From: Azolla caroliniana
Lineage: Eukaryota; Plantae; Polypodiophyta
DNA length: 64,000 bases
Direction: 5' to 3'
NCBI GenBank assembly: GCA_043228905.1
Contig: JBHGNT010000145.1
Span: 2,664 to 66,663 of the forward strand
The notes under the pieces are model-generated. The model did not search any database, was not told the origin of the DNA, and worked only from the letters and a program-made list of their open reading frames with translations. Made by a program: the position numbers and the translations under genes. This document shows positions 22,301-53,828 of this stretch, in pieces (positions within the stretch are counted from its first letter, which is position 1; every line of letters begins with the position of its first letter).

Positions 22301-23400
22301 TTTTTTAACTCCATATCATAGCTAGCGTTGTTAGCTTCGATTCGCATGTTTGAACACAAAAATCCGATATCACACGAGCCAGGTATGAACATTTTAATTT
22401 ACTCAAGGCCTCCTTTGAACTCCCTCCTCATGTTTGCTAATTTCGTCCTGTCTCTCGACCTGAGTTTCAAAATCTTGATTTTTTAATTCCATATCATAGC
22501 TAGCGTTGTTAGCTTCGATTCGCATGTTTGAACACAAAAATCCGATATCACACTCGCCAGGTATGAACATTTTAATTTACTCAAGGCCTCCTTTGAACTC
22601 TCTCCTCATGGTTGCTAATTTCGTCGTGTCTCTCGAACTGAGTTTCAAAATCTTGATTTTTTAATTCCATATTATCGATAGCGTTGTTAGCTTCGATTTG
22701 CATGTTTGAACACAAAAATCCGATATCACACGAGCCAGGTATGAACATTTTAATTTACTCAAGGCCTCCTTTGAACTCCCTCCTCATGTTTGCTAATTTC
22801 GTCGTGTCTCTCGAACTGAGTTTCAAAATCTTGATTTTTTAATTCCATATCATAGCTAGCGTTGTTAGCTTCGATTCGCATGTTTGAACACAAAAATCCG
22901 ATATCACACGAGCCAGGTATGAACATTTTAATTTACTCAAGGCCTCCTCTGAACTCCCTCCTCATGGTTGCTAATTTCGTCGTGTCTCTCGACCTGAGTT
23001 TCATAATCTTTATTTTTTAATTCCATTTCATAGCTAGCATTGTTAGCTTCGATTCGCATGTTTGAACACAAAAATCCGATATCACACGAGCCAGGTATGA
23101 ACTATTTAATTTACTCAAGGCCTCCTTTGAACTCCCTCCTCATGTTTGCTAATTTCGTCATGTCTCTCGACCTGAGTTTCAAAATCTTGATTTTTTAATT
23201 CCATATCATAGCTAGCGTTGTTAGCTTCGATTCGCATGTTTGAACACAAAGATCCGATATCACACGAGCCATGTATGAACATTTTAATTTACTCAAGGCC
23301 TCCTTTGAACTCCCTCCTCATGTTTGCTAATTTCGTCATGTCTCTCGACCTGAGTTTCAAAATCATGATTTTTTAATTCCATATTATAGATAGCGTTGTT
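4300..23400. repeat. 8-monomer (1424-bp) higher-order repeat region with two HOR variants
   Basis: Marker TCATAATCTTTATTTTTT is at 4311, 5735, 7337, 8761, 10185, 11609, 13033, 14457, 15881, 17305, 18729, 20153, 21577 and 23001. Spacing is 1424, except one 1602 (9-mer) step. Confidence 0.92.
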
Positions 23401-35400: not shown

Positions 35401-38400
35401 TTTAATTCCATATTATCGATAGCGTTGTTAGCTTCGATTTGCATGTTTGAACACAAAAATCCGATATCACACGAGCCAGGTATGAACTATTTAATTTACT
35501 CAAGGCCTCCTTTGAACTCCCTCCTCATGTTTGCTAATTTTGTCATGTCTCTCGACCTGAGTTTCGAAATCTTGATTTTTTAATTCCATATCATAGCTAG
35601 CGTTGTTAGCTTCGATTCGCATGTTTGAACACAAAAATCCGATATCACACGAGCCAGCTATGAACATTTTAATTTACTTAAGGCCTCCTTTGAAGTCACT
35701 CCTCATGTTTGCTAATTTCGTCATGTCTCTCGACCTGAGTTTCAAAATCTTGATTTTTTAATTCCATATCATACCTAACGTTGTTAGCTTCGATTCGCAT
35801 GTTTGTACACAAAAATCCGATATCATACTCGCTAGGTATGAACATTTTAATTTACTCAAGGGCTCCTCTCAACTCACTCCTCAAATTTGCTAATTTCGTC
35901 ATTTCTCTCGACCTGAGTTTCAAAATCTTGATTTTTTAACTCCATATCATAGCTAGCGTTGTTAGCTTCGATTCTCATGTTTGAACACAAAAATCCGATA
36001 TCACACGAGCCAGACATGAACATTTTAATTTACCTACTAGCTCTTCCCAACTCAGTCCTGAAATTTGGTAATTTCGTCATGTCTCTCGACCTGAGTTTCA
36101 AAATCTTGATTTTTTAATTCCATATCATAGCTAGCGTTGCTATCTTCGATTCGCATGTTTGAACACAAAAATCCAATATCACACGACCTAGGTATGAACA
36201 TTTTAATTTACTCAAGGCCTCCTCTGAACTCCCTCCTTATGTTTGCTAATTTCGTCATGTCTCTCGACCTGAGTTTCAAAATCTTGATTTTTTAATTCCA
36301 TATTATCGATAGCGTTGTTAGCTTCGATTCGCATGTTTGAACACAAAAATCCAATATCACACTCGCTAGGTATGAACATTTTAATTTACTCAAGGGCTCC
36401 TCTCAACTCACTCCTCAAATTTGGTAATTTCGTCATTTCTCTCGACCTGAGTTTCAAAATCTTGATTTTTTAATTCCATTTCATAGCTATCGTTGTTAGC
36501 TTCGATTCGCATGTTTGAACACAAAAATCCGATATCACACGAGCCAGGTATGAACATTTTAATTTACTCAAGGCCTCCTTTGAACTCCCTCCTCATGTTT
36601 GCTAATTTCGTCATGTCTCTCGACCTGAGTTTCAAAATCTTGATTTTTTAATTCCATATTATCGATAGCGTTGTAAGCTTCGATTGGCATGTTTGAACAC
36701 AAAAATCCGATATCACACGAGCCAGGTATGAACTATTTAATTTACTCAAGGCCTCCTTTGAACTCCCTCCTCATGTTTGCGAATTTCGTCATGTCTCTCG
36801 ACCTGAGTTTCAAAATCTTGATTTTTTAATTCCATAACATAGCTAGCGTTGTTAGCTTCGATTCGCATGTTTGAACACAAAAATCCGATATCACACTCGC
36901 TAGGTATGAACATTTTAATTTACTCAAGACCTCCTCTGAACTCCCTCCTCATGTTTGCTAATTTCGTCCCTGAGTTTCAAAATCTTGATTTTTTAATTCC
37001 ATATCATACCTAGCGTTGTTAGCTTCGATTCGCATGTTTGAACACAAAAATCCGATATCACACGAGCCAGGTATGAACATTTTAATTTACTCAAGGCCTC
37101 CTTTGAACTCCCTCCTGAAATTTGGTAATTTCGTCATGTCTCTCGACCTGAGTTTCAAAATCTTGATTTTTTAATTCCATATTATCGATAGCGTTGTTAG
37201 CTTCGATTCGCATGGTTGAACACAAAAATCCGATATCACACGAGCCAGGTATGAACTATTTAATTTACTCAAGACCTCCTTTGAACTCCCTCCTCATGTT
37301 TGCTAATTTCGTCATGTCTCTCGACCTGAGTTTCAAAATCTTGATTTTTTAATTCCATTTCATAGCTAGCGTTGTTAGCTTCGATTCGCATGTTTGAACA
37401 CAACAATCCGATATCACACGAGCCAGGTATGAACATTTTAATTTACTCAAGGCCTCCTCTGAACTCCCTCCTCATGGTTGCTAATTTCGTCGTGTCTCTC
37501 GACCTGAGTTTCATAATCTTGATTTTTTAATTCCATTTCATAGCTAGCGTTGTTAGCTTCGATTCGCATGTTTGAACACAAAAATCCGATATCACACGAG
37601 CCAGGTATGAACATTTTAATTTACTCAAGGGCTCCTCTCAACTCACTCCTCAAATTTGCTAATTTCGTCATTTTTCTCGACCTGAGATTCAAAATCTTGA
37701 TTTTTTAACTCCATATCATCGCTAGCGTTGTTAGCTTCGATTCGCATGTTTGAACACAAAAATCCGATATCACACTCGCCAGGTATGAACATTTTAATTT
37801 ACTCAAGGCCTCCTCTGAACTCCCTCCTCATGTTTGCTAATTTCGTCGTGTCTCTGGACCTGAGTTTCATAATCTTGATTTTTTAATTCCATTTCATAGC
37901 TAGCGTTGTTAGCTTCGATTCGCATGTTTGAACACAAAAATCCGATATCACACGAGCCAGGTATGAACATTTTAATTTACTCAAGGCCTCCTCTGAACTC
38001 CCTCCTCATGTTTGCTAATTTCGTCATGTCTCTCGACCTGAGTTTCAAAATCTTGATTTTTTAATTCCATATTATCGATTGCGTTGTTAGCTTCGATTCA
38101 CATGTTTGAACACAAAAATCCGATATCACACTCGCTAGGTATGAACATTTTAATTTACTCAAGGGCTTCTCTCAACTCACTCCTCAAATTTGCTAATTTC
38201 GTCATATCTCTGGACCTGAGTTTCAAAATCTTGATTTTTTAAATCCATATCATAGCTAGCGTTGTTAGCTTCGATTCGCATGTTTGAACACAAAAATCCA
38301 ATATCACACGAGCCAGATATGAACTTTTGAATTTACCTACTAGCTCTTCCCAACTCACTCCTCAAATTTGGTAATTTCGTCATGTCTCTCGACTTGAGTT

Positions 38401-41400
38401 TCAAAATCATGATTTTTTAATTCCATATCATAGCTAGCGTTGTTAGCTTCGATTCGCATGTTTGAACACAAAAATCCGATATCACACGAGACAGATATGA
38501 ACATTTTAATTTACCTACTAGCTCTTCCCAACTCACTCCTCAAATTTGGTAATTTCGTCCTGTCTCTCGACCTAGGTTTCAAAATCTTGATTTTTTAACT
38601 CCATATCATAGCTAGCGTTTTTAATTTCGATTCACATGTTTGAACACAGAAATCCGATATCACACTCGCCAGGTATGAACATTTTAATTTACTCAAGGCC
38701 TCCTCTGAACTCCCTCCTCATGTTTGCAAATTTCGTCATGTCTCTCTACTTGAGTTTCAAAATCATGATTTTTTAATTCCATATCATAGCTAGCGTTGTT
38801 AGGTTCGATTCGCATGTTTGAACACAAAAATCCGATATCACACGAGCCAGATATGAACATTTTAATTTACCTACTAGCTCTTCCCAACTCACTCCTGAAA
38901 TTTGGTAATTTCGTCATGTCTCTCGACCTGAGTTTCAAAATCTTGATTTTTTATTTCCATATCATAGCTAGCGTTGCTATCTTCGATTCGCATGTTTGAA
39001 CACAGAAATCCAATATCACACGAGCTAGGTATGAACATTTTAATTTACTCAAGGCCTCCTCTGAACTCCCTCCTTATGTTTGCTAATTTCGTCATGTCTC
39101 TCGACCTGAGTTTCAAAATCTTGATTTTTTAATTCCATATTATCGATAGCGTTGTTAGCTTCGATTCACATGTTTGAACACAAAAATCCGATATCACACT
39201 CACTAGGTATGAACATTTTAATTTACTCAAGGGCTCCTCTCAACTCACTCCTCAAATTTGGTAATTTTGTCATTTCTCTCGACCTAAGTTTCAAAATCTT
39301 GATTTTTTAACTCCATATCATAGCTAGCGTTGTTAGCTTCGATTCGCATGTTTGAACACAAAAATCCGATATCACACTCGCCAGGTATGAACATTTTAAT
39401 TTACTCAAGGCCTCCTCTGAACTCCCTCCTCATGGTTGCTAATTTCGTCGTGTCTCTCGACCTGAGTTTCATAATCTTGATTTTTTAATTCCATTTCATA
39501 GCTAGCGTTGTTAGCTTCGATTCGCATGTTTGAACACAAAAATCCGATATCACACGAGCCAGGTATGAACATTTTAATTTACTCAAGGGCTCCTCTCAAC
39601 TCACTCCTCAAATTTGCTAATTTCGTCATTTCTCTCGACCTGAGTTTCAAAATCTTGATTTTTTAACTCCATATCATAGCTAGCGTTGTTAGCTTCGATT
39701 CGCATGTTTGAACACAAAAATCCGATATCACACTCGCCAGGTATGAACATTTTAATTTACTCAAGGCCTCCTCTGAAATCCCTCCTCATGGTTGCTAATT
39801 TCGTCGTGTCTCTGGACCTGAGTTTCATAATCTTGATTTTTTAATTCCATTTCATAGCTAGCGTTGTTAGCTTCGATTCGCATGTTTGAACACAAAAATC
39901 CGATATCACACGAGCCAGGTATGAACATTTTAATTTACTCAAGGCCTCCTCTGAACTCCCTCCTCATGTTTGCTAATTTCGTCATGTCTCTCGACGTGAG
40001 TTTCAAAATCTTGATTTTTTAATTCCATATTATCGATAGCGTTGTTAGCTTCGATTTGCATGTTTGAACACAAAAATCCGATATCACACGAGCCAGGTAT
40101 GAACTATTTAATTTACTCAAGGCCTCCTTTGAACTCCCTCCTCATGTTTGCTAATTTCGTCATGTCTCTCGACCTGAGTTTCAAAATCTTGATTTTTTAA
40201 TTCCATATCATAGCTAGCGTTGTTAGCTTCGATTCGCATGTTTGAACACAAAAATCCGATATCACACTCGCTAGGTATGAACATTTTAATTTACTCAAGA
40301 CCTCCTCTGAACTCCCTCCTCATGTTTGCTAATTTCGTCCCTGAGTTTCAAAATCTTGATTTTTTAATTCCATATCATACCTAGCGTTGTTAGCTTCGAT
40401 TCGCCTGTTTGAACACAAAAATCCGATATCACACGAGCCAGGTATGAACATTTTAATTTACTCAAGGCCTCCTTTGAACTCCCTCCTGAAATTTGGTAAT
40501 TTCGTCATGTCTCTCGACCTGAGTTTCAAAATCTTGATTTTTTAATTCCATATTATCGATAGCGTTGTTAGCTTCGATTCGCATGTTTGAACACAAAAAT
40601 CCGATATCACACGAGCCAGGTATGAACTATTTAATTTACTCAAGACCTCCTTTGAACTCCCTCCTCATGTTTGCTAATTTCGTCATGTCTCTCGACCTGA
40701 GTTTCAAAATCTTGATTTTTTAATTCCATTTCATAGCTAGCGTTGTTAGCTTCGATTCGCATGTTTGAACACAAAAATCCGATATCACACGAGCCAGGTA
40801 TGAACATTTTAATTTACTCAAGGGCTCCTCTCAACTCACTCCTCAAATTTGCTAATTTCGTCATTTCTCTCGACCTGAGTTTCAAAATCTTGATTTTTTA
40901 ACTCCATATCATAGGTAGCGTTGTTAGCTTCGATTCGCATGTTTGAACACAAAAATCCGATATCACACTCGCCAGGTATGAACATTTTAATTTACTCAAG
41001 GCCTCCTCTGAACTCCCTCCTCATGGTTGCTAATTTCGTCGTGTCTCTGGACCTGAGTTTCATAATCTTGATTTTTTAATTCCATATCATAGCTAGCGTC
41101 GCTATCTTCGATTCGCATGTTTGAACACAAAAATCCAATATCACACGAGCTAGGTATGAACATTTTAATTTACTCAAGGCCTCCTCTGAACTCCCTCCTT
41201 ATGTTTGCTAATTTCGTCATGTCTCTCGACCTGAGTTTCAAAATCTTGATTTTTTAATTCCATATTATCGATAGCGTTGTTAGCTTCGATTCGCATGTTT
41301 GAACACAAAAATCCGATATCACACCCGCCAGGTATGAACATTTTAATTTACTCAAGGGCTCCTCTCAACTCACTCCTCAAATTTGGTAATTTCGTCGTGT

Positions 41401-44400
41401 CTCTCGACCTGAGTTTCATAATCTTGATTTTTTAATTCCATATCATAGCTAGCGTTGTTAGCTTCGATTCGCATGTTTGAACACAAAAATCCGATATCAC
41501 ACGAGCCAGGTATGAACATTTTAATTTACTCAAGGGCTCCTCTCAACTCACTCCTCAAATTTGCTAATTTCGTCATTTCTCTCGACCTGAGTTTCAAAAT
41601 CTTGATTTTTTAACTCCATATCATAGCTAGCGTTGTTAGCTTCGATTCGCATGTTTGAACACAAAAATCCGATATCACACTCGCCAGGTATGAACATTTT
41701 AATTTACTCAAGGCCTCCTCTGAACTCCCTCCTCATGGTTGCTAATTTCGTCGTGTCTCTGGACCTGAGTTTCATAATCTTGATTTTTTAATTCCATTTC
41801 ATAGCTAGCGTTGTTAGCTTCGATTCGCATGTTTGAACACAAAAATCCAATATCACACGAGACAGATATGAACATTTTAATTTACCTACTAGCTCTTCCC
41901 AACTCACTCCTCAAATTTGGTAATTTCGTCCTGTCTCTCGACCTAGGTTTCAAAATCTTGATTTTTTAACTCCATATCATAGCTAGCGTTTTTAATTTCG
42001 ATTCACATGTTTGACCACAGAAATCCGATATCACACGAGCCAGGTATGAACATTTTAATTTACTCAAGGCCTCCTCTAAAGTCCCTCCTCATGGTTGCTA
42101 ATTTCGCCATGTCTCTCGACCTGAGTTTCAAAATCTTGATTTTTTAAATCCATATCATAGCTAGCGTTGTTAGCTTCGATTCGCATGTTTGAACACAAAA
42201 ATCCAATATCACACGAGCCAGATATGAACATTTTAATTTACCTACTAGCTCTCCCCAACTCAGTCCTGAAATTTGGTAATTTCGTCATGTCTCTCGACCT
42301 GAGTTTCAAAATCTTGATTTTTTAATTCCATATCATAGCTAGCGTTGCTATCTTCGATTCGCATGTTTGAACACAAAAATCCATTATCACACGAGCTAGG
42401 TATGAACATTTTAATTTACTCAAGGCCTCCTCTGAACTCCCTCCTTATGTTTGCTAATTTCGTCATGTCTCTCGACCTGAGTTTCAAAATCTTGATTTTT
42501 TAATTCCATATTATCGATAGCGTTGTTAGCTTCGATTCGCATGTTTGAACACAAAAATCCAATATCACACTCGCTAGGTATGAACATTTTAATTTACTCA
42601 AGGGCTCCTCTCAACTCACTCCTCAAATTTGGTAATTTCGTCATTTCTCTCGACCTGAGTTTCAAAATCCGATATCACACTCGCCAGGTATGAACATTTT
42701 AATTTACTCAAGGCCTCCTTTGAACTCTCTCCTCATGGTTGCTAATTTCGTCGTGTCTCTCGACCTGAGTTTCAAAATCTTGATTTTTTAATTCCATATT
42801 ATCGATAGCGTTGTTAGCTTCGATTTGCATGTTTGAACACAAAAATCCGATATCACACGAGCCAGGTATGAACATTTTAATTTACTCAAGGCCTCCTCTA
42901 AAGTCCCTCCTCATGTTTGCAAATTTCGTCATGTCTCTCTACTTGAGTTTCAAAATCATGATTTTTTAATTCCATATCATAGCTAGCGTTGTTAGGTTCG
43001 ATTCGCATGATTGAACACAAAAATCCGATATCACACGAGCCAGATATGAACATTTTAATTTACCTACTAGCTCTTCCCAACTCACTCCTGAAATTTGGTA
43101 ATTTCGTCATGTCTCTCGACCTGAGTTTCAAAATCTTGATTTTTTATTTCCATATCATAGCTAGCGTTGCTATCTTCGATTCGCATGTTTGAACACAAAA
43201 ATCCAATATCACACGAGCTAGGTATGAACATTTTAATTTACTCAAGGCCTCCTCTGAACTCCCTCCTTATGTTTGCTAATTTCGTCATGTCTCTCGACCT
43301 GAGTTTCAAAATCTTGATTTTTTAATTCCATATTATCGATAGCGTTGTTAGCTTCGATTCACATGTTTGAACACAAAAATCCGATATCACACTCGCTAGG
43401 TATGAACATTTTAATTTACTCAAGGGCTCCTCTCAACTCACTCCTCAAATTTGGTAATTTTGTCATTTCTCTCGACCTAAGTTTCAAAATCTTGATTTTT
43501 TAACTCCATATCATAGCTAGCGTTGTTAGCTTCGATTCGCATGTTTGAACACAAAAATCCGATATCACACTCGCCAGGTATGAACATTTTAATTTACTCA
43601 AGGCCTCCTCTGAACTCCCTCCTCATGGTTGCTAATTTCGTCGTGTCTCTCGACCTGAGTTTCATAATCTTGATTTTTTAATTCCATTTCATAGCTAGCG
43701 TTGTTAGCTTCGATTCGCATGTTTGAACACAAAAATCCGATATCACACGAGCCAGGTATGAACATTTTAATTTACTCAAGGGCTCCTCTCAACTCACTCC
43801 TCAAATTTGCTAATTTCGTCATTTCTCTCGACCTGAGTTTCAAAATCTTGATTTTTTAACTCCATATCATAGCTAGCGTTGTTAGCTTCGATTCGCATGT
43901 TTGAACACAAAAATCCGATATCACACTCGCCAGGTATGAACATTTTAATTTACTCAAGGCCTCCTCTGAACTCCCTCCTCATGGTTGCTAATTTCGTCGT
44001 GTCTCTAGACCTGAGTTTCATAATCTTGATTTTTTAATTCCATTTCATAGCTAGCGTTGTTAGCTTCGATTCGCATGTTTGAACACAAAAATCCGATATC
44101 ACACGAGCCAGGTATGAACATTTTAATTTACTCAAGGCCTCCTCTGAACTCCCTCCTCATGTTTGCTAATTTCGTCATGTCTCTCGACGTGAGTTTCAAA
44201 ATCTTGATTTTTTAATTCCATATTATCGATAGCGTTGTTAGCTTCGATTTGCATGTTTGAACACAAAAATCCGATATCACACGAGCCAGGTATGAACTAT
44301 TTAATTTACTCAAGGCCTCCTTTGAACTCCCTCCTCATGTTTGCTAATTTCGTCATGTCTCTCGACCTGAGTTTCAAAATCTTGATTTTTTAATTCCATA

Positions 44401-47400
44401 TCATAGCTAGCGTTGTTAGCTTCGATTCGCATGTTTGAACACAAAAATCCGATATCACACGAGCCAGGTATGAACTATTTAATTTACTCAAGGCCTCCTT
44501 TGAACTCCCTCCTCATGTTTGCTAATTTCGTCATGTCTCTCGACCTGAGTTTCAAAATCTTGATTTTTTAATTCCATATCATAGCTAGCGTTGTTAGCTT
44601 CGATTCGCATGTTTGAACACAAAAATCCGATATAACACGAGCCAGGTATGAACTATTTAATTTACTCAAGGCCTCCTTTGAACTCCCTCCTCATGTTTGC
44701 TAATTTTGTCATGTCTCTCGACCTGAGTTTCAAAATCTTGATTTTTTAACTCCATATCATAGCTAGCGTTGTTAGCTTCGATTCCCATGTTTGAACACAA
44801 AAATCTGATATCACACTCGCTAGGTATGAACATTTTAATTTACTCAAGGCCTCCTCTGAACTCCCTCCTCATGTTTGCTAATTTCGTCGTGTCTCTCGAC
44901 CTGAGTTTCAAAATCTTGATTTTTTAATTCCATATCATACCTAGCATTGTTAGCTTCAATTCGCATGTTTGAACACAAAAATCCGATATCACACGAGCCA
45001 GGTATGAACATTTTAATTTACTCAAGGCCTCCTTTGAACTCCCTCCTCATGTTTGCTAATTTCGTCATGTCTCTCGACCTGAGTTTCAAAATCTTGATTT
45101 TTTAATTCCATATTATCGATAGCGTTGTTAGCTTCGATTCGCATGTTTGAACACAAAAATCCGATATCACACTCGCTAGGTATGAACATTTTAATTTACT
45201 CAAGGGCTCCTCTCAACTCACTCCTCAAATTTGCTAATTTCGTCATATCTCTGGACCTGAGTTTCAAAATCTTGATTTTTTAAATCCATATCATAGCTAG
45301 CGTTGTTAGCTTCGATTCGCATGTTTGAACACAAAAATGCAATATCACACGAGCCAGATATGAACATTTTAATTTACCTACTAGCTCTTCCCAACTCACT
45401 CCTCAAATTTGGTAATTTCGTCATGTCTCTCGACTTGAGTTTCAAAATCATGATTTTTTAATTCCATATCATAGCTAGCGTTGTTAGCTTCGATTCGCAT
45501 GTTTGAACACAAAAATCCGATATCAGACGAGACAGATATGAACATTTTAATTTACCTACTAGCTCTTCCCAACTCACTCCTCAAATTTGGTAATTTCGTC
45601 CTGTCTCTCGACCTAGGTTTCAAAATCTTGATTTTTTAACTCCATATCATAGCTAGCGTTTTTAATTTCGATTCACATGTTTGAACACAGAAATCCGATA
45701 TCACACTCGCCAGGTATGAACATTTTAATTTACTCAAGGCCTCCTCTGAACTCCCTCCTCATGTTTGCAAATTTCGTCATGTCTCTCTACTTGAGTTTCA
45801 AAATCATGATTTTTTAATTCCATATTATAGCTAGCGTTGTTAGCTTCGATTCGCATGTTTGAACACAAAAATCCGATATCACACGAGCCAGATATGAACA
45901 TTTTAATTTACTCAAGGGCTCCTCTCAACTCACTCCTCAAATTTGGTAATTTCGTCATTTCTCTCGACCTGAGTTTCAAAATCTTGATTTTTTAACTCCA
46001 TATCATAGCTAGCGTTGTTAGCTTCGATTCGCATGTTTGAACACAAAAATCCGATATCACACTCGCCAGGTATGAACATTTTAATTTACTCAAGGCCTCC
46101 TCTGAACTCCCTCCGCATGGTTGCTAATTTCGTCGTGTCTCTCGACCTGAGTTTCATAATCTTGATTTTTTAATTCCATTTCATAGCTAGCGTTGTTAGC
46201 TTCGATTCGCATGTTTGAACACAAAAATCCGATATCACACGAGCCAGATATGAACATTTTAATTTACCTACTAGCTCTTCCCAACTCAGTCCTGAAATTT
46301 GGTAATTTCGTCATGTCTCTCGACCTGAGTTTCAAAATCTTGATTTTTTAATTCCATATCATAGCTAGCGTTGCTATCTTCGATTCGCATGTTTGAACAC
46401 AAAAATCCAATATCACACGAGCTAGGTATGAACATTTTAATTTACTCAAGGCCTCCTCTGAACTCCCTCCTTATGTTTGCTAATTTCGTCATGTCTCTCG
46501 ACCTGAGTTTCAAAATCTTGATTTTTTAATTCCATATTATCGATTGCGTTGTTAGCTTCGATTCGCATGTTTGAACACAAAAATCCGATATCACACTCGC
46601 TAGGTATGAACATTTTAATTTACTCAAGGGCTCCTCTCAACTCACTCCTCAAATTTGGTAATTTCGTCATTTCTCTCGATCTGAGTTTCAAAATCTTGAT
46701 TTTTTAATTCCATATCATAGCTAGCGTTGTTAGCTTCGATTCGCATGTTGGAACACAAAAATCCGATATCACACTCGCTAGGTATGAACATTTTAATTTA
46801 CTCAAGGCCTCCTGTGAACTCCCTCCTCATGTTTGCTAATGTCGTCATGTCTCTCGACTTGAGTTTCAAAATCTTGATTTTTTAATTTCATATCATAGCT
46901 AGCGTTGTTAACTTCGATTCGTATGTTTGTACACAAAAATCCGATATCACACTCGCTAGGTATGAACATTTTAATTTACTCAAGGGCTCCTCTCAACTCA
47001 CTCCTCAAATTTGCTAATTTCGTCATTTCTCTCGACCTGAGTTTCAAAATCTTGATTTTTTAACTCCATATCATAGCTAGTGTTGTTAGCTTCGATTCCC
47101 ATGTTTGAACACAAAAATCCGATATCACACTCGCTAGGTATGAACATTTTAATTTACTCAAGACCTCCTCTGAACTCCCTCCTCATGTTTGCTAATTTCG
47201 TCCCTGAGTTTCAAAATCTTGATTTTTTAATTCCATATCATACCTAGCGTTGTTAGCTTCGATTCGCCTGTTTGAACACAAAAATCCGATATCACACGAG
47301 CCAGGTATGAACATTTTAATTTACTCAAGGCCTCCTTTGAACTCCCTCCTCATGTTTGCTAATTTCGTCATGTCTCTCGACCTGAGTTTCAAAATCTTGA

Positions 47401-48036
47401 TTTTTTAATTCCATATTATCGATAGCGTTGTTAGCTTCGATTCGCATGTTTGAACACAAAAATCCGATATCACACACGCTAGGTATGAACATTTTAATTT
47501 ACTCAAGGGCTCCTGTGAACTCCCTCCTCATGTTTGCTAATTTCGTCATGTCTCTCGACCTGAGTTTCAAAATTTTGATTTTTTAACTCCATATCATAGC
47601 TAACGTTGTTAGCTTCGATTCGCATGTTTGAATACAAAAATCCGATATCACACTCGCTAGGTATGAACACTTTAATTTACTCAAGACCTCCTCTCAACTC
47701 CCTCCTCATGTTTGCTAATTGCGTTCCTGAGTTTCAAAATCTTGATTTTTTAATTCCATATCATAGCTAGGGTTGTTAGCTTCGATTCGCATGTTTGAAC
47801 ACAAAAATCCGATATCACACGAGCTAGGTATGAACATTTTAATTTACTCAAGGCCTCTTGTGAACTCCCTCCTCATGTTTGCTAATTTGGTCATGTCTCT
47901 CGACTTGAGTTTAAAAATCTTGATTTTTTTAATTCCATATCATACCTAGCGTTGTTAGCTTCAATTCGCATGTTTGTACACAAAAATCCGATATCACACT
48001 CGCTAGGTATGAACATTTTAATTTACTCAAGGGCTC

Positions 48037-48041
48037 CTCTC
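48037..48041 (+). other. Target-site duplication CTCTC (left copy; right copy at 53829-53833)
   Basis: Empty paralogous sites read GGGCTC-CTCTC-AACTCAC (58411-58428, 59825-59842). The filled site reads GGGCTC-CTCTC-[element]-CTCTC-AACTCAC. Confidence 0.95.
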
Positions 48042-48112
48042 TGTCATAACTAGACTCGAACCCATAACCTTTTGTTACACGGGTCGAGACTTTACCATTA
48101 GGTTATGAGTTG
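48042..48112 (-). other. Degenerate tRNA-like segment (Pol III A-box/B-box-like) at the U3 edge of the 5' LTR
   Basis: The minus strand reads TAACCTAATGGTAAAGT...AGGTTATGGGTTCGAGTCTAGTTATGACA. It has an A-box-like motif (48095-48105) and a B-box-like GGTTCGAGTCT (48052-48062) at tRNA spacing. Acceptor and anticodon stems do not pair, so it is not a functional tRNA. Confidence 0.55.
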
Positions 48113-48164
48113 TAATTTGAAGGATATTATTTTCATTTAGGTTTTATTAGGAAATTGATGTATA

Positions 48165-48212
48165 TTCCAGATTTCTCTGGAACATTCTAGAAACTTCAGG
48201 AGTATTCCTGAA
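48165..48212. promoter_or_regulatory. Heat-shock element (alternating nGAAn/nTTCn array) in U3; second copy at 53459-53506
   Basis: TTCcaGATttCTCtgGAAcaTTCtaGAAacTTCagGAGtaTTCctGAA gives ten in-phase pentamer units. Seven are perfect, including four consecutive perfect units. Confidence 0.8.
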
Positions 48213-48217
48213 GACAC

Positions 48218-48224
48218 TATAAAA
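48218..48224 (+). promoter_or_regulatory. TATA box of the LTR promoter (3' LTR copy at 53512-53518)
   Basis: TATAAAA lies directly downstream of the HSE array and about 30 nt upstream of the predicted transcript 5' end. Confidence 0.75.
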
Positions 48225-48331
48225 GGAGGCGCAAGGCATTAGTTCGAACCAAATCGGTTCAACGCCAGTCTTAAGCCTTCTAACTACTGTTGTATATCTT
48301 CCGTCATATAATACATATATCTTTCGCATCA

Positions 48332-48336
<5 letters not shown>

Positions 48337-48370
<34 letters not shown>
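48337..48370. repeat. (CT)17 microsatellite in the 5' LTR
   Basis: Counted directly. Confidence 0.95.
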
Positions 48371-48374
<4 letters not shown>

Positions 48375-48401
48375 CCTTCTCTCAAAGTTCGACACCTCTC
48401 A

Positions 48402-48480
48402 TAGTACTAATCCTTCTCTGTCTTAGTACTATTCCCCAACAATAGTACTAATCCTTCTTTTAGTACTAATTCCTTCTCTG
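48402..48480. repeat. Four short tandem subrepeats, each containing the palindrome TAGTACTA, near the LTR 3' end (same in the 3' LTR)
   Basis: TAGTACTA at 48402, 48424, 48443 and 48461, each followed by a variant of ATCCTTCT. Confidence 0.9.
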
Positions 48481-48502
48481 CCTGAATAGAGTTCCTGACA
48501 GT

Positions 48503-48514
48503 TTGAACCGATTT
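48503..48514 (+). promoter_or_regulatory. Primer-binding site of self-priming type
   Basis: There is no TGG after the LTR. TTGAACCGATTT is the exact reverse complement of AAATCGGTTCAA at 48251-48262, which lies 33 nt after the TATA start. Confidence 0.85.
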
Positions 48515-48589
48515 TCTCCTACTAGTCTCCCTCTTCCTTCTGTCTCTCTCCTTTCCTACTAGTCTCTTATTTCCCTTTTCCTTCATCCC

Positions 48590-49759
48590 ATGGCCACCGT
48601 TAGCGCTGAAGAGTATCAATCCGTTTTCTCGGAATTTCAATGCTTGAAAGAGAAGTTTCATGCTTTGGAACAAGAAAATCAACGCTTGTTGGGGGATCTT
48701 CAGCAAATTTCCTTAGAAAAGCAGCAAACGCAACAACAGCATGGGGAACTTGCGTTACGCGTGCAACAACTCGAAGCAACCATCGTAGCAATGCAACAAC
48801 AAGGGCACGGAGCACAAGGGATTCATAAAGAACCCAAGATTGGCCTTCCCACGAAGTTCGATGGAACGCGATCGCAGTTTAGAGGGTTTCTTAACCAGGT
48901 ACGGTTAGTTATTCAAATGCATCCATCCCGATATCCCACCGATGCATCACGAGTGGGTTTAGTAGGCACGTTGTTAAATGGCTCAGCATTAGCATGGTTC
49001 GCTCCGCTACTAGAAAAGGAATCTCCAGTACTAAATAATTTTGAAGAATTCATAAGTGAGTTTAAAGCATGTTTTGGAGATACTGACAGCATAAGGACTG
49101 CAATCAACAAAATCCGGCGATTACGCCAAGGTGACCGTCCAGCCTCCGCATATGCTGCAGATTTCCGCCTACTCGCCGCCGATATCCCCTGGGATGATCA
49201 AGCATTGATGGAGCAGTTCCGCTATGGTCTACGCAACGATGTCAAGGATTTACTCTTGACTTTCCCTGAAGAGCCAAAATCATTAACAGAAGCAATCAGT
49301 CGAGCGGTCAGATGTGACAACCGCCTCTTCGAGCGACGTTCGGAACGACAATTTCAGATGCCGAGGGCAAGATCCGAGCCTACCTATGCCTCAATGGTAG
49401 CGAAACCTTTTCAAAGGGAGTCACATAATGCGCCTCCAGTAAGTACTCCAACTCCAATGGAAATTGACACTACACGTCGTCGTGGGCCGCTATCGGAGGA
49501 GGAAAAGCAACGACGCCGAACAAACCGATTATGCCTTTATTGCGGTGGACCAGGGCATATCGCGATAAACTGTCCCCATAGACCAAGAAGGCAGGTAAAC
49601 CAAGTCATTGTTAGTTCTGACTATACTAAACCCGAGTCTATGTCAGTAGGAATCTCTGATAATCCTCATAGTCATAATAGTCCTAATAGTACTAATAGTC
49701 CGAATCTCGCAAACAAATTTGATGTCCTTAGCCAATTAGAAGAAGAGTTAAACGACTAA
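48590..49759 (+). CDS. gag: Gag (N-terminal coiled coil, Ty3/sushi/PEG10-like capsid, CCHC zinc knuckle), 389 aa
   Basis: Capsid-type motifs PTKFDGTRSQFRGFL, LLNGSALAWF and LRQG...AYAADF, plus PTPMEID. Zinc knuckle CLYCGGPGHIAINC (CX2CX4HX4C) at 49532-49573. Confidence 0.95.
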   Translation: MATVSAEEYQSVFSEFQCLKEKFHALEQENQRLLGDLQQISLEKQQTQQQHGELALRVQQLEATIVAMQQQGHGAQGIHKEPKIGLPTKFDGTRSQFRGFLNQVRLVIQMHPSRYPTDASRVGLVGTLLNGSALAWFAPLLEKESPVLNNFEEFISEFKACFGDTDSIRTAINKIRRLRQGDRPASAYAADFRLLAADIPWDDQALMEQFRYGLRNDVKDLLLTFPEEPKSLTEAISRAVRCDNRLFERRSERQFQMPRARSEPTYASMVAKPFQRESHNAPPVSTPTPMEIDTTRRRGPLSEEEKQRRRTNRLCLYCGGPGHIAINCPHRPRRQVNQVIVSSDYTKPESMSVGISDNPHSHNSPNSTNSPNLANKFDVLSQLEEELND

Positions 49760-49798
49760 GTCCAGCCAAAATAGGAGCCGTTTGGTTGGACAGCCCTA
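49747..49798 (+). promoter_or_regulatory. -1 programmed ribosomal frameshift signal (slippery heptamer plus stem/pseudoknot)
   Basis: G TTA AAC (49747-49753) is in the gag frame. After a 6-nt spacer comes an 11-bp stem GTCCAGCCAAA (49760-49770) / TTTGGTTGGAC (49781-49791) with one G-U pair. Loop TAGG can pair with CCTA (49795-49798). Confidence 0.85.
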
Positions 49799-52700
49799 GA
49801 TCTGTGCAGCCCATTAGTGGTTCCATTCCCTCTAAGCAAGTTAGTGATGTGTTCGTAGTCCAAGTAGCAGTTAGTACTAAAAGAACCCCTCCAGTACATA
49901 CCTTAGCCCTTCTAGATTCCGGAGCTAATTCTTGCTTCATGGATAGGAATTTTGCCCGAGCTCATCAGATATCTCTCAGAAAGCTCCCATGTCCAGCCTC
50001 AGTAGTAGTCATTGATGGTCGTCCCATTGCTTCTGGTAATATCATAGAAGAGTCGGAACCCGTTAATATTGTCCTAGATAACTTAACATGTGTAGTATCA
50101 TTTAATATTATTAGTATTCCAGAACATCCCATAGTTTTAGGATTACCATGGTTCGAGTTACATGACCCAGACATAGATTGGAGGACAAGGGAAATCCGGT
50201 TGCGACAAACCCAAGGATCTACCCAGAAGGTTGCAACCATTTCGCTACGTCAGTTGCGTGAGGAAGGGCGCAAGGAGGAAATGTTTCTCTTTGCAATATC
50301 AGTACAACCCTCCAGCACCACCAAAGAGGAGTCCACCGTTCAACTTCCCGAGAAGTATCGTCAGTATGCTGATGTGTTCGATAAAGTACAAGCCAACACA
50401 CTTCCTCATCATCGGCCGTACGACTGCGCCATCGACTTACAACCGGGAAAAGAGCCGCCATGGGGGCCGATCTACAATTTGTCACCAACCGAGCTAGAAG
50501 TCCTTCGAGCCTATATAGAGGAGAATTTGGAGAACGGTTTCATTCGGCATTCGAAATCTCCAGCCGGCGCACCCATTTTCTTCGTCAAGAAAAAAGATGG
50601 CTCGCTTCGACTCGTTGTAGATTACCGTGGCTTGAATAAGGTCACAGTAAGAAATAGGTATGCTCTTCCCCTTATCTCAAGTCTTTTAGAACGGATCAAC
50701 GGTGCCAGGTTCTTCACGAAGATCGACTTACGAGGAGCCTATAACCTCGTACGGATCCGACCAGGAGATGAATGGAAGACCGCGTTTCGCACCAGATATG
50801 GGCACTTCGAGTATACGGTCATGCCGTTCGGACTCACTAATGCGCCGGCAGTCTTCCAGCACATGGCGAATGATATATTTCGAGACCTCTTGGATGATTT
50901 TTTGATCATCTATTTGGATGATCTACTGGTTTATTCAAAGACCCAAGAAGAACATGATTCTCATGTACTATTAGTACTAAAACGACTTCGAGAACATGGT
51001 CTGTATGCAAAGTTAGAGAAATGTAGTTTCGGGTGCAACCAAGTGGAGTTTCTCGGCTATGTCATCTCCTCAGAAGGCATATCTATGGACCCAGCCAAGG
51101 TCAAAACGGTGATAGAATGGCACACTCCGCGTTCGGTGCGGGATGTGCAATGCTTCCTAGGCTTTGCAAATTTCTATCGGAAGTTCATACAAAATTACTC
51201 AAAAATTGTGCTGCCTCTCACACAGCTCACCAGGAAGGGACAATCATTCATTTGGTCTAAAGAGACGGACATGGCTTTCGAGAGTCTTAAGAAGGCGTTT
51301 ACATCAGCTCCAATTTTAGGTCATGTGGATCCGGAAAAACCATTCATTATCGAAGCTGATGCATCGGATTTCGCATTGGGGAGCATTCTGTCACAACAGG
51401 GTAACGACGAGAAGCTACATCCTGTGGCTTTCCACTCCCGTAAGTTTGACGCCGCCGAAATCAACTACGAAATTCATGATAAAGAGCTATTAGCAATAGT
51501 TGATTCTTTTATGCAATGGAGGCATTTCCTGGAGGGATCTCCTCATCAGGTCACTGTATTCAGTGACCACAAGAACCTTGCCTACTTTCAAGATGCTCGT
51601 GTACTGAATCGACGTCAAGCTCGGTGGGCCCATTTCCTCACACGCTTCGACTTCAAAATTACATATCGTCCGGGGAAGCACCAAGGGAAGGCAGATGCAT
51701 TATCACGGCGCTCGTATCTAACACCACGTCCCGGTGAGCCAGCTTTCGATAACCAGAAGCAAGTAATCTTGGGTCCAGCACGACTGCAAGCAGCACAGAT
51801 CTTTGACATGCCCGTGGATTCCGACATTACCAATACTATACGTGAGGACTTGAAGACTGACGCTTTCGCCCAAGCTATACTAGCACAAATTGACCCCTCT
51901 CGAGCGTCATGTTCACAATCACAATCACCAGGTACGGATTATCGGCAATTCAAATACTGTGATGGATTACTCTTCTTTAAAGAACTTTTGTATGTTCCTA
52001 ATGGTTCTTGCCGCCTTCAAGTAGTACAAAACTGCCATGACACATATACAGCAGGACATTTTGGTAGTACTAAAACATTAGATTTAGTACAACGATCATT
52101 CTGGTGGCCCCGTATGCGACAATTTGTCGAAGATTTTGTTCGGACTTGCGATACATGCTGCAGAGCGAAAATGCCAAGACATCATCCATATGGTTTATTA
52201 GAACCATTACCAATTCCAAGCAAGCCATGGCAATCCATTGCTCTTGACTTCATTACAGATCTTCCAGTCTCTAAGGGATTCAGTGCGATTCTCACAGTGG
52301 TGGATCGATATACGAAGATGGCTCATTTCTTACCATGTACTAAAGAAATATCTAGTGAAGACACCGCCGAAATTGTCATGCGGGAAGTATGTCGGCATCA
52401 TGGACTCCCTGATAATATCATCAGCGATCGTGGACCCCAGTTTGTGTCAAAATTCTGGAAGCACCTTTTTAAAATGCTGAAGGTCACTTGTAACCTCTCC
52501 TCCGGCTACCACCCACAAACCGACGGTCAAGCCGAACGAACAAATCAAACACTGGAGCAGTATCTGCGGTGCTTTCTCAACTATCATCAGAATGACTGGG
52601 CAGATATTCTTCCGTTCGCCGAATTTGCCTATAATAACGCTATCCACGCATCGACTAAAGTCACGCCATTCTACGCTTATACGGGATATCATCCCCGGTG

Positions 52701-53343
52701 GTGTGTCCTTGAAACCCCAGAAGTGTCCACAAATCCTTGCGCGGAGGATCGTTTGGAGCGGTTACGCAAGATACAAGCGGATTTATCTACTCAACTCCAG
52801 CAAGCTCAACAATCACACAAGGACTACGCAGATCGTCATCGACTTCCATCCAGTTTTAACATTGGAGATCGGGTGTGGCTGCTACGACGACACATCAAGA
52901 CTACTCGCCCATGTGAGAAGTTGGATTATCGACGATTAGGTCCTTTCCGTATTATCGGGAAGATTAATGATGTCGCTTTTCGTCTCGAGCTACCTCCGCA
53001 ACTTCGGATACACCCGGTGTTTCATAGTTCTCTCCTCGAACCCTATCACGAGAGCACTATCCCAGGACGTACTATACAACCTCCACCTCCTATCGAGCTC
53101 GAAGATGGACCTGAGTATGAGGTCGCTGCCATCCTCGATTCCAAGATTGTTCGCAACAAGCTCTACTATCTAGTCGATTGGCTAGGATATAGTCCCAGCG
53201 AGCGTACTTGGGAACCGATCGAGAATGTGACCAATGCTCGTGCTCTTCTAGAAGACTTCCATCGACGATATCCCGAGAAACCGGGTCCTCAATCCAAAAC
53301 GACTCGTGAAACTCGTCGTTTTAAAGGGGGGATAGTGTCATAA
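49753..53343 (+). CDS. pol: Pol polyprotein (aspartic protease, reverse transcriptase, RNase H, integrase, chromodomain), probably expressed as a Gag-Pol fusion by -1 frameshift
   Basis: Protease ALLDSGA; RT motifs KIDLRGAY, MPFGLTNAP and YLDD (50911-50922); RNase H EADASDFALG and HDKELLAI. Integrase has H..H..CDTC, LDFITDL, SDRGPQF, GQAERTNQ and the GPF module, followed by chromodomain EYEVAAILD..YYLVDWLGY..RTWEP. The frame is open from 49732, in -1 relative to gag; the ORF-track start at 49786 is a TTG. Confidence 0.95.
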   Translation, partial: RLSPAKIGAVWLDSPRSVQPISGSIPSKQVSDVFVVQVAVSTKRTPPVHTLALLDSGANSCFMDRNFARAHQISLRKLPCPASVVVIDGRPIASGNIIEESEPVNIVLDNLTCVVSFNIISIPEHPIVLGLPWFELHDPDIDWRTREIRLRQTQGSTQKVATISLRQLREEGRKEEMFLFAISVQPSSTTKEESTVQLPEKYRQYADVFDKVQANTLPHHRPYDCAIDLQPGKEPPWGPIYNLSPTELEVLRAYIEENLENGFIRHSKSPAGAPIFFVKKKDGSLRLVVDYRGLNKVTVRNRYALPLISSLLERINGARFFTKIDLRGAYNLVRIRPGDEWKTAFRTRYGHFEYTVMPFGLTNAPAVFQHMANDIFRDLLDDFLIIYLDDLLVYSKTQEEHDSHVLLVLKRLREHGLYAKLEKCSFGCNQVEFLGYVISSEGISMDPAKVKTVIEWHTPRSVRDVQCFLGFANFYRKFIQNYSKIVLPLTQLTRKGQSFIWSKETDMAFESLKKAFTSAPILGHVDPEKPFIIEADASDFALGSILSQQGNDEKLHPVAFHSRKFDAAEINYEIHDKELLAIVDSFMQWRHFLEGSPHQVTVFSDHKNLAYFQDARVLNRRQARWAHFLTRFDFKITYRPGKHQGKADALSRRSYLTPRPGEPAFDNQKQVILGPARLQAAQIFDMPVDSDITNTIREDLKTDAFAQAILAQIDPSRASCSQSQSPGTDYRQFKYCDGLLFFKELLYVPNGSCRLQVVQNCHDTYTAGHFGSTKTLDLVQRSFWWPRMRQFVEDFVRTCDTCCRAKMPRHHPYGLLEPLPIPSKPWQSIALDFITDLPVSKGFSAILTVVDRYTKMAHFLPCTKEISSEDTAEIVMREVCRHHGLPDNIISDRGPQFVSKFWKHLFKMLKVTCNLSSGYHPQTDGQAERTNQTLEQYLRCFLNYHQNDWADILPFAEFAYNNAIHASTKVTPFYAYTGYHPRWCVLETPEVSTNPCAEDRLERLRKIQADLSTQLQQAQQSHKDYADRHRLPSSFNIGDRVWLLRRHIKTTRPCEKLDYRRLGPFRIIGKINDVAFRLELPPQLRIHPVFHSSLLEPYHESTIPGRTIQPPPPIELEDGPEYEVAAILDSKIVRNKLYYLVDWLGYSPSERTWEPIENVTNARALLEDFHRRYPEKPGPQSKTTRETRRFKGGIVS
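53323..53335 (+). promoter_or_regulatory. Polypurine tract
   Basis: AAAGGGGGGATAG directly abuts the TG of the 3' LTR. Confidence 0.9.
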
Positions 53344-53406
53344 CTAGACTCGAACCCATAACCTTTTCTTACACGGGTCGAGACTTTACCATTAGGTTAT
53401 GAGTTG
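53336..53406 (-). other. Degenerate tRNA-like segment in the 3' LTR (points antisense into pol)
   Basis: Same sequence as 48042-48112 with one substitution. Confidence 0.55.
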
Positions 53407-53625
53407 TAATTTGAAGGATATTATTTTCATTTAGGTTTTATTAGGAAATTGATGTATATTCCAGATTTCTCTGGAACATTCTAGAAACTTCAGGAGTATT
53501 CCTGAAGACACTATAAAAGGAGGCGCAAGGCATTAGTTCGAACCAAATCGGTTCAACGCCAGTCTTAAGCCTTCTAACTACTGTTGTATATCTTCCGTCA
53601 TATAATACATATATCTTTCGCATCA

Positions 53626-53630
<5 letters not shown>

Positions 53631-53695
<65 letters not shown>

Positions 53696-53698
53696 ACT
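53631..53698. repeat. (CT)30(CACT)2 microsatellite in the 3' LTR
   Basis: Counted directly. Confidence 0.95.
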
Positions 53699-53828
53699 CA
53701 TTCCTTCTCTCAAAGTTCGACACCTCTCATAGTACTAATCCTTCTCTGTCTTAGTACTATTCCCCAACAATAGTACTAATCCTTCTTTTAGTACTAATTC
53801 CTTCTCTGCCTGAATAGAGTTCCTGACA

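What the first reader, a model, noticed from the sequence alone, without database searches (positions are those of the whole stretch)
48042..48112. tRNA-like A/B-box module at the very edge of both LTRs of an autonomous chromovirus, oriented antisense to the element
Seen: on the minus strand, TAACCTAATGG (A-box-like, TRGCNNARYGG with one mismatch) and GGTTCGAGTCT (B-box-like, GGTTCGANNCC with one mismatch) sit 45 nt apart from T8 to T54. That is the spacing in a standard tRNA lacking position 17. Three of four D-stem pairs and an AGGTT variable-loop-like segment are present, and tRNA position 72 falls on the terminal LTR base. Known: small-RNA-derived LTR segments occur in non-autonomous TRIMs (5S rRNA in Cassandra; tRNA-like in Helenus, as I recall). 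TFIIIC-bound B boxes can act as chromatin barriers. Inference: this autonomous element may use the module as a Pol III promoter, firing into the upstream satellite from the 5' LTR and antisense into pol from the 3' LTR. It could instead be a TFIIIC insulator shielding the Pol II promoter from satellite chromatin. I do not know this arrangement from an autonomous chromovirus.
Basis: partly seen in the sequence, partly recalled or inferred. Interest (0 to 1): 0.8.

Follow-up and report, generated by a model that had tools for sequence, protein, structure and literature searches.

The report
Backwards tRNA promoter in retrotransposon LTRs
A whole group of protein-coding jumping genes, likely from mosses or similar plants, keeps the two promoter boxes of a tRNA gene, back to front and at fixed spacing, at the outer edge of its end repeats while the DNA around them drifts freely, which likely means that the element recruits the tRNA transcription machinery to keep its own promoter open in silenced chromatin.

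Summary
Both LTRs of an intact, self-priming, Tcn1-like chromovirus (48042-53828) carry antisense A and B boxes 45 nt apart; 0 of 3000 shuffles matched. Related elements show purifying selection. The boxes sit 45-46 nt apart in 43 of 54 distinct LTR starts (4% in shuffles). Across 15 diverged families the boxes and the AGGT segment are conserved (pair identity 0.66-0.78), while the anticodon arm and flanks (0.38-0.40) are as diverged as four-fold codon sites (0.44). None of 42 more distant chromovirus loci has the module. It is not a foldable tRNA (4 bits against 76 for true tRNAs; no consensus fold). The fit of 'position 72' to the LTR end is coincidence (19-71 nt in relatives), and no terminator position is conserved. 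Best reading, inferred: a tDNA-type TFIIIC/TFIIIB site set back to back with the Pol II promoter (heat-shock-element-like repeats, TATA), acting as barrier or chromatin opener. Binding and transcription are untested. Ten literature searches found no report in plant chromoviruses; Helenus TRIMs are nearest. This scan noted similar boxes before in fungal chromovirus LTRs on other DNA.

The parts
48042..48500 (+). 5' LTR (459 nt, TG...CA), target-site duplication CTCTC at 48037-48041 and 53829-53833
48095..48105 (-). A box (tRNA positions 8-19) of the antisense module, 5' LTR
48067..48070 (-). AGGT, tRNA variable-loop positions 44-47; G45, G46, T47 invariant in 15 of 15 families
48052..48062 (-). 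B box (tRNA positions 52-62), 5' LTR
48106..48145 (-). A/T-rich stretch upstream of the A box, predicted TFIIIB seat (78% A+T here; mean 81% in 15 families against 62% on the other side of the module)
   Evidence: role inferred
48180..48197 (+). Heat-shock-element-like array of alternating GAA/TTC units (motif label recalled)
48218..48224 (+). TATA box of the predicted Pol II promoter
48251..48262 (+). Predicted RNA 5' end and 12-nt self-primer, complementary to the PBS
48503..48514 (+). Self-priming PBS (not tRNA-complementary), 2 nt after the LTR
48590..49759 (+). gag ORF (Retrotrans_gag, Ty3_capsid, zinc knuckle)
49732..53343 (+). pol ORF: protease, RT, RNase H, integrase, SH3, chromodomain; the stop lies inside the 3' LTR
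53336..53828 (+). 3' LTR (493 nt; one substitution and a longer TC run against the 5' LTR)
53389..53399 (-). A box, 3' LTR
53346..53356 (-). B box, 3' LTR
53296..53299 (-). First T4 run downstream of the 3' LTR module, possible Pol III stop; position not conserved in relatives
47982..47986 (-). First T5 run downstream of the 5' LTR module, in the satellite
1..48040 (.). 178-bp satellite array in which the element sits (continues 53921-63867)

Best explanation
The module is a tRNA-derived A-box/B-box pair that a clade of autonomous self-priming chromoviruses keeps antisense at the outer end of its LTRs, and it likely works as DNA, binding TFIIIC and placing TFIIIB back to back with the element's Pol II promoter, where it would act as a tDNA-type barrier or chromatin opener against the surrounding heterochromatin. 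Shown: tRNA origin, orientation, fixed spacing, conservation above neutral sites, restriction to one clade, and absence of a shared fold or terminator. Inferred: TFIIIC binding (about 0.7), TFIIIB/Pol III loading from the retained A box and A/T-rich upstream stretch, and the benefit to the Pol II promoter. Any short antisense RNA would be a by-product. Origin by capture of a tRNA-derived repeat into an ancestral LTR is inferred.
For: Spacing 45-46 nt in 43 of 54 distinct LTR starts with spacing left free, against 4.2% of 1080 shuffles; at most 3 mismatches in 36 of 54 on the minus strand, 0 of 54 on the plus strand, 2 of 1080 shuffles. Fifteen families, 62-82% identical to the window at the pol end: pair identity A box 0.66, positions 44-51 0.71, B box 0.78; anticodon arm 0.39, flanks 0.40 and 0.38; four-fold sites 0.44. 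An unanchored alignment with two host tRNAs gives the same invariant bases. Core deviations 26 of 528 in copies with an open pol end, 24 of 192 in broken ones; at the B-box CpG, A57 occurs in 12 of 33 open copies and T56 in 0 of 33, but T56 in 3 of 12 broken copies. No consensus fold on either strand. Upstream 40 nt are 81% A+T against 62% on the other side, as for plant tRNA genes (PMC11700998, passages). Self-priming with five co-varying primer/PBS pairs removes the need for a tRNA primer. tDNAs and TFIIIC sites are barriers in yeast, more so with TFIIIB (PMC3395662, passages). Group I chromodomains were shown to bind H3K9 methylation in MAGGY (PMC3350952, passages).
Against: No binding, transcription or chromatin data. 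Strict 45-46 nt spacing and invariant AGGT are tighter than TFIIIC is recalled to need, and one search found no paper tying positions 44-47 to TFIIIC. G10 is kept in only 5 of 15 families and C61 in 12 of 15; no conserved CAA start motif. Three copies with an open pol end (L025, L038, L054) lack a placeable module. The families share ancestry, so counts are not independent events; the A57/T56 contrast rests on about six clusters. The A57/T56 asymmetry is also what RNA pairing with host tRNA predicts. Barrier data come from yeasts, not plants. A 3' LTR copy has no Pol II promoter that needs shielding.
Confidence: 0.5

Rival explanations
1. The module is a working Pol III promoter whose antisense RNA is the selected product: from the 3' LTR it would cover U3, the polypurine tract and the pol end, and so tune silencing, RNA stability or plus-strand priming.
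For: Complete A+B promoter at tRNA spacing. Six of 15 families have no T4 within 500 nt downstream. A4 runs in the last 480 nt of pol number 15 against 24.0 expected, while the rest of pol gives 159 against 158.3 (12 families); this is a weak, after-the-fact signal.
Against: Predicted RNA ends differ widely: T4 inside the LTR in 6 of 15 families, 40-55 nt past T54 in 3, beyond 500 nt in 6. No shared fold.
Confidence: 0.18
2. The module acts in the genomic RNA: U3 is complementary to the conserved D, variable and T loops of host tRNAs and binds them to aid dimerisation, packaging or strand transfer, like the tRNA-like stretch reported in HIV-1 U3-R (title seen in the reference list of PMC11241228; content recalled) or the bipartite Ty3 primer site (recalled).
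For: It explains the antisense orientation, the U3 position, exact tRNA spacing with the one-base variation mostly in the D loop, and the conserved AGGT. G57 to A would be a tolerated wobble, C56 to T would not.
Against: The clade self-primes, so no tRNA is tethered to the PBS. Other G-to-A changes that wobble pairing should tolerate are rare in open copies: G53 33 of 33, G46 32 of 33, G18 and G19 31 of 33. Modified bases and the folded elbow would hinder pairing (recalled). The A/T-rich upstream stretch is not explained.
Confidence: 0.17
3. A neutral relic of a tRNA-derived repeat that landed in an ancestral LTR and is carried along.
For: Host DNA next to two loci holds a tRNA-derived repeat sharing a stretch with one family's module (L041, L021), so a donor exists.
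Against: Box positions stay invariant while neighbouring positions and four-fold sites are near saturation; spacing is fixed while the distance to the edge varies 19-71 nt; decay is faster in broken copies.
Confidence: 0.06
4. A hairpin at the U3 start (anticodon-side sequence pairing with the T arm) is the selected feature and the box likeness is incidental.
For: The window's module folds better than shuffles (z -2.2 to -3.1) and L005 strongly (z -3.9, -4.8) (one search gave z -1.7 to -2.2).
Against: Only 3 of 15 families reach z below -2; no consensus pair on either strand; true tRNA profiles recognise the module.
Confidence: 0.05

Closest known systems
Helenus / TRIMp3 (Kojima 2024, PMC10886601; parts 1-4 of 6 and searched passages read, supplements not read)
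   Same: tRNA-like sequence in both LTRs, conserved around boxes A and B, not a functional tRNA, proposed origin from a SINE inserted into an LTR.
   Different: Helenus is non-autonomous, under 1.3 kb, tRNA-primed, and is proposed to use Pol III to make its own template. This element is 5.8 kb, encodes gag and pol, self-primes, has a TATA promoter, and its boxes point away from the element, so they cannot drive the genomic RNA. That paper argues autonomous partners should not share such LTR sequence, though it notes that 'not a few' Repbase LTRs hit tRNA and followed up only the TRIMs.
Tcn1 clade chromoviruses of mosses and club-mosses, Tf1/Sushi group (PMC6317226, PMC2864245, PMC3350952; passages)
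   Same: Ty3/gypsy domain order, chromodomain with the three aromatic residues, self-priming, 5-bp target duplication, LTR about 450 nt.
   Different: The passages read mention TATA and CAAT boxes in the SM-Tcn1 LTR but no tRNA-like module. Placement on a tree with named Tcn1 references was not possible.
tDNA barriers and ETC/COC TFIIIC sites of yeasts (PMC3395662, passages)
   Same: B-box elements that insulate or block heterochromatin without a needed RNA product.
   Different: ETC sites are described as an extended B box alone, at fixed chromosomal loci. Here A and B boxes are both kept at tRNA spacing and travel with a mobile element in a plant.
tRNA(Lys3)-like sequence in HIV-1 U3-R (Piekna-Przybylska 2010; only the title seen, in a reference list; the rest recalled)
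   Same: tRNA-like sequence in the U3 region of an autonomous LTR element, recalled as complementary to tRNA on the genomic RNA.
   Different: There it is recalled to pair with the primer tRNA. This element has no tRNA primer and keeps only promoter-box positions.
Cassandra TRIM (as described in PMC10886601)
   Same: Pol III promoter inside plant LTRs.
   Different: 5S-derived, non-autonomous, transcribes the element itself.

Membership tests
Helenus / TRIMp3 | tRNA-derived A and B boxes conserved in the LTRs | tested here: met
Helenus / TRIMp3 | Non-autonomous, short (311-1263 bp), no coding capacity | tested here: not met
   5787-bp element with open gag and pol
Helenus / TRIMp3 | tRNA-complementary PBS | tested here: not met
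   PBS is complementary to the element's own R start
Helenus / TRIMp3 | Pol III promoter placed to make the RNA template of the element | tested here: not met
   boxes are antisense and point out of the element
tRNA gene | Cloverleaf with paired acceptor, D, anticodon and T stems | tested here: not met
   paired cells in 15 families: acceptor 37 of 105, anticodon 30 of 75, D 38 of 60, T 49 of 75; 4.2 bits against 76; ARAGORN 0 in the window and no module called in 60 loci
Type 2 Pol III promoter | A and B boxes at tRNA spacing | tested here: met
Type 2 Pol III promoter | A/T-rich upstream region, CAA start motif, T-run terminator | tested here: inconclusive
   A/T-rich met; CAA within 25 nt in 6 of 15; terminator position not conserved
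Type 2 Pol III promoter | TFIIIC/TFIIIB/Pol III occupancy and a transcript | not testable with these tools
   only unstranded contigs were available
Tcn1 chromovirus | PR-RT-RH-INT order with C-terminal chromodomain bearing the aromatic cage | tested here: met
   Pfam order; Y, W, Y read in the chromodomain
Tcn1 chromovirus | Self-priming instead of tRNA priming | tested here: met
   12-nt perfect complement in 12 of 15 in-clade PBS sites, 1 with one mismatch, 2 where the contig starts too close; five co-varying pairs
Tcn1 chromovirus | RT-RH-INT phylogeny groups with named Tcn1 elements | not testable with these tools
   no named reference among the homologues
ETC/COC TFIIIC insulator | TFIIIC bound without Pol III; barrier activity | not testable with these tools
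   needs ChIP and reporter assays

The most novel reading that the evidence does not exclude
A whole lineage of heterochromatin- and satellite-inserting plant chromoviruses carries its own portable tDNA barrier: a captured tRNA promoter, turned outward at the LTR edge, loads TFIIIC and TFIIIB so that each new copy opens and shields its stress-responsive Pol II promoter. The element would thereby scatter Pol III sites and boundaries through heterochromatin and satellite arrays, giving a first natural test of TFIIIC barriers in plants.
Probability: 0.4. Interest if true: 0.8.

Novelty: new variant of a known kind. Interest (0 to 1): 0.6.

Why it matters
Elements that aim at silent chromatin must still be transcribed from it. 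A selected, outward-facing tRNA promoter in the LTR offers a concrete mechanism that one base change can test. It extends Pol III modules in LTRs from non-coding TRIMs to autonomous elements, where they cannot serve to copy the element. If TFIIIC binds, a high-copy family would add many TFIIIC sites to a plant genome, including satellite arrays.

Tried and rejected
No genome is held for the window, so copy number and insertion preference are unknown. Rfam gave no tRNA match for the window or for any module in 20 loci, while it found two true host tRNAs. A tRNA covariance model scored the window's module at background and relatives at 8-19 bits (9 of the 14 family loci searched gave a module match at E up to 5). 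One search shows some covariation above shuffles, but that alignment holds two true tRNAs; without them no pair is predicted. Expression: no RNA holder listed; contigs of guessed RNA runs laid on the LTR and pol end show neither strand nor start. Viral contigs gave no close relatives and two distant ones. Landing-pad idea from earlier notes: 34 of 46 LTRs run on to the R start; among the 12 others one (L061) has foreign sequence about 40 nt upstream of T8, judged by eye; inconclusive. Pairing of the self-primer with the B-box complement was dropped because primers change between families without matching change in the box. The protein atlas held neither query. The HIV-1 paper was not held. Literature searches found no description of this module in plant chromoviruses; subscription journals, Repbase entries and the Helenus supplements were not seen and could hold one.

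Full report
The element. The window is a 178-bp satellite array with one LTR retrotransposon at 48042-53828, flanked by the duplication CTCTC. The LTRs (48042-48500, 53336-53828) differ by one substitution and the length of a TC run, so the insertion is young. gag and pol are open and pol ends in a chromodomain; the best solved-structure match is Ty3 Gag-Pol. There is no tRNA primer site. The 12 nt at 48503-48514 are the exact complement of 48251-48262, about 33 nt after a TATA box. Relatives show five different primer/PBS pairs that change together (12 of 15 in-clade sites perfect). Self-priming plus an aromatic-cage chromodomain is what PMC6317226 (passages) gives for the Tcn1 clade, found among plants only in mosses and club-mosses. 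A plant receptor kinase lies beside one relative and several sequencing runs are labelled leaf or plant metagenome. A non-seed plant host is therefore inferred, not shown.

Observation. The boxes, spacing, D-stem count and AGGT segment are as described. In 3000 dinucleotide shuffles of the LTR, 0 gave the pair at 44-47 nt and 2 at any spacing from 28 to 78. It is not a tRNA: ARAGORN and Rfam are blank, and a covariance model from 21 genuine tRNAs gives 4.2 bits, below several chance hits in pol.

Relatives. A scan with the pol C-terminus returned 77 loci. I dropped 18: 11 with no placeable LTR start and 7 with under 130 nt. The other 59 plus the window gave 54 distinct LTR starts. With spacing free, the best A/B pair was 45 or 46 nt apart in 43 of 54, against 4.2% of 1080 shuffles. 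At most 3 mismatches were found in 36 of 54 on the minus strand, 0 of 54 on the plus strand and 2 of 1080 shuffles. The distance from T54 to the LTR edge ran from 19 to 71 nt among these, so position 72 on the last base is coincidence. A tree of the pol end (55 rows; 2 short rows left out) separates 51 rows from 4 outgroup rows with full support. A profile of the module found nothing at E up to 5 in those 4 or in 38 more distant chromovirus loci (207 kb; 8 of the 42 had under 200 nt downstream). One decayed element of a more distant sub-lineage nested in L063 has the boxes 47 nt apart, read by eye, so the module may be wider than the clade sampled.

Selection. Sixteen in-clade clusters (85% cut) had a member with an open pol end. 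I used 15, leaving out L054, whose LTR is cut inside the module, and chose the representative by hand in four clusters, including L034 for a cluster whose first member L025 has a rearranged module. Pair identity was 0.66 (A box), 0.71 (positions 44-51) and 0.78 (B box), against 0.39 (anticodon arm), 0.40 and 0.38 (flanks) and 0.44 at four-fold codon sites. That alignment was anchored on the boxes, which inflates box values, but an unanchored alignment with two host tRNAs gave the same picture: T16, G18, G46, T47, G53, T54, T55, C56 and A58 invariant in 17 of 17. The module could be placed in 45 of 54 starts; the 9 misses were the outgroup L058, 5 broken copies and 3 with an open pol end. Core positions deviated in 26 of 528 cells in open copies and 24 of 192 in broken ones. 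At the B-box CpG the change that tRNA genes allow (A57) is common in open copies (12 of 33) and T56 appears only in broken ones (3 of 12). These counts share ancestry and are not independent.

tRNA origin without tRNA structure. A sequence profile from 21 true tRNAs picked the minus strand in 15 of 15 families and beat all 200 shuffles in 14. The module's own profile retrieved T5, E. coli and host tRNA genes, best E 3.8e-4. Stems are not kept: acceptor 37 of 105 cells paired, anticodon 30 of 75, D 38 of 60, T 49 of 75, the last mostly the two pairs inside the B box. No consensus pair is predicted on either strand. The hairpin seen in the window is limited to 3 of 15 families. A tRNA-derived repeat in host DNA beside L041 and L021 shares a stretch with the L034 family's module and is a candidate donor type.

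Layout. From the edge inward the U3 reads: B box, A box, 40 nt at 81% A+T (62% on the edge side, 70% further in), heat-shock-element-like GAA/TTC arrays in 8 of 15 families (three of the others are short contigs), TATA, RNA start. TFIIIB would sit on the A/T-rich stretch, back to back with the Pol II promoter. Plant tRNA genes have such an A/T-rich 50 nt (PMC11700998, passages). A CAA motif lies within 25 nt in only 6 of 15. The first T4 lies inside the LTR in 6 families, 40-55 nt past T54 in 3 (the window's among them) and beyond 500 nt in 6. An RNA product of fixed length or fold is thus not what is kept.

Mechanism. The retained bases are those of the internal promoter, their spacing is fixed, and fold and terminator are free. 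That points to a DNA site for TFIIIC (inferred, about 0.7). Because the boxes face outward they cannot make the genomic RNA, unlike the role proposed for Helenus (PMC10886601, parts 1-4 of 6). In yeasts tDNAs and TFIIIC sites block heterochromatin, more so with TFIIIB (PMC3395662, passages). Group I chromodomains were shown to bind H3K9 methylation in MAGGY (PMC3350952, passages), and the moss element RLG1 is transcribed although it lies in heterochromatic islands (PMC7466625, passages). I therefore favour a portable barrier or chromatin opener (0.5 overall). Against it: no occupancy data; spacing and AGGT are stricter than I recall TFIIIC needing; three open copies lack the module. The antisense-RNA rival (0.18) has one weak hint, a shortage of A4 runs at the pol end (15 against 24.0). 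The rival in which genomic RNA pairs with host tRNAs (0.17) explains orientation and spacing well, but the clade has no tRNA primer and wobble-tolerated changes are rare. A neutral relic (0.06) is largely excluded.

Novelty. Ten searches found no report of this module in plant chromoviruses. The Helenus paper says that many Repbase LTRs hit tRNA but followed only TRIMs; its supplements were not read. Earlier unchecked notes of this scan describe tRNA-type boxes in fungal chromovirus LTRs (e1-10420520, e1-10420559, e1-9852194); none covers this lineage. Their landing-pad idea was inconclusive here. Verdict: a real, selected feature; a new variant of a known kind; function predicted, not shown. 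Interest 0.6.

Noticed in passing
window 48180-48197 and LTRs of L008, L012, L014, L023, L024, L029, L034, L056: Arrays of alternating GAA/TTC units upstream of the TATA box resemble heat-shock elements (label recalled), suggesting a heat-inducible promoter; absent in the L022, L027, L037 and L044 families.
   Followed up: partly
window 48251-48262 and 48503-48514; L009, L012, L014, L037: Self-primer and PBS co-vary across families, followed by a conserved CAACRCCAGTC motif; in L008 and L012 the primer itself resembles a T-loop/B-box core.
   Followed up: partly
L063 about 1165-1260: A nested, decayed chromovirus of a more distant sub-lineage also starts its LTR with antisense A and B boxes, 47 nt apart.
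   Followed up: partly
L041 about 135-210 and L021 about 290-330: A tRNA-derived repeat in host DNA with remains of an acceptor stem, possibly a SINE head, sharing a stretch with the module of the L034 family.
   Followed up: partly
L031 553-626 and 832-905: Two true host tRNA genes (Asn-GTT, Thr-AGT), convergent, lie directly beside a 5'-truncated element of this clade.
   Followed up: no
window 1-48040 and 53921-63867: The 178-bp satellite shows higher-order patterns and truncated 102-129 nt units; its monomer has a weak B-box-like site (one mismatch in about 28 monomers) that the module profile did not match in the ~1 kb scanned. Whether it is centromeric was not tested.
   Followed up: partly
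window 49732-49759: gag and pol overlap by 28 nt in different frames, and several relatives' pol products start at an ATG near this point, so pol may be expressed by frameshift, reinitiation or splicing.
   Followed up: no
L080-L115: Thirty-six contigs filed in prokaryotic genomes encode chromovirus-like integrase ends, probably eukaryotic contamination of those assemblies.
   Followed up: no
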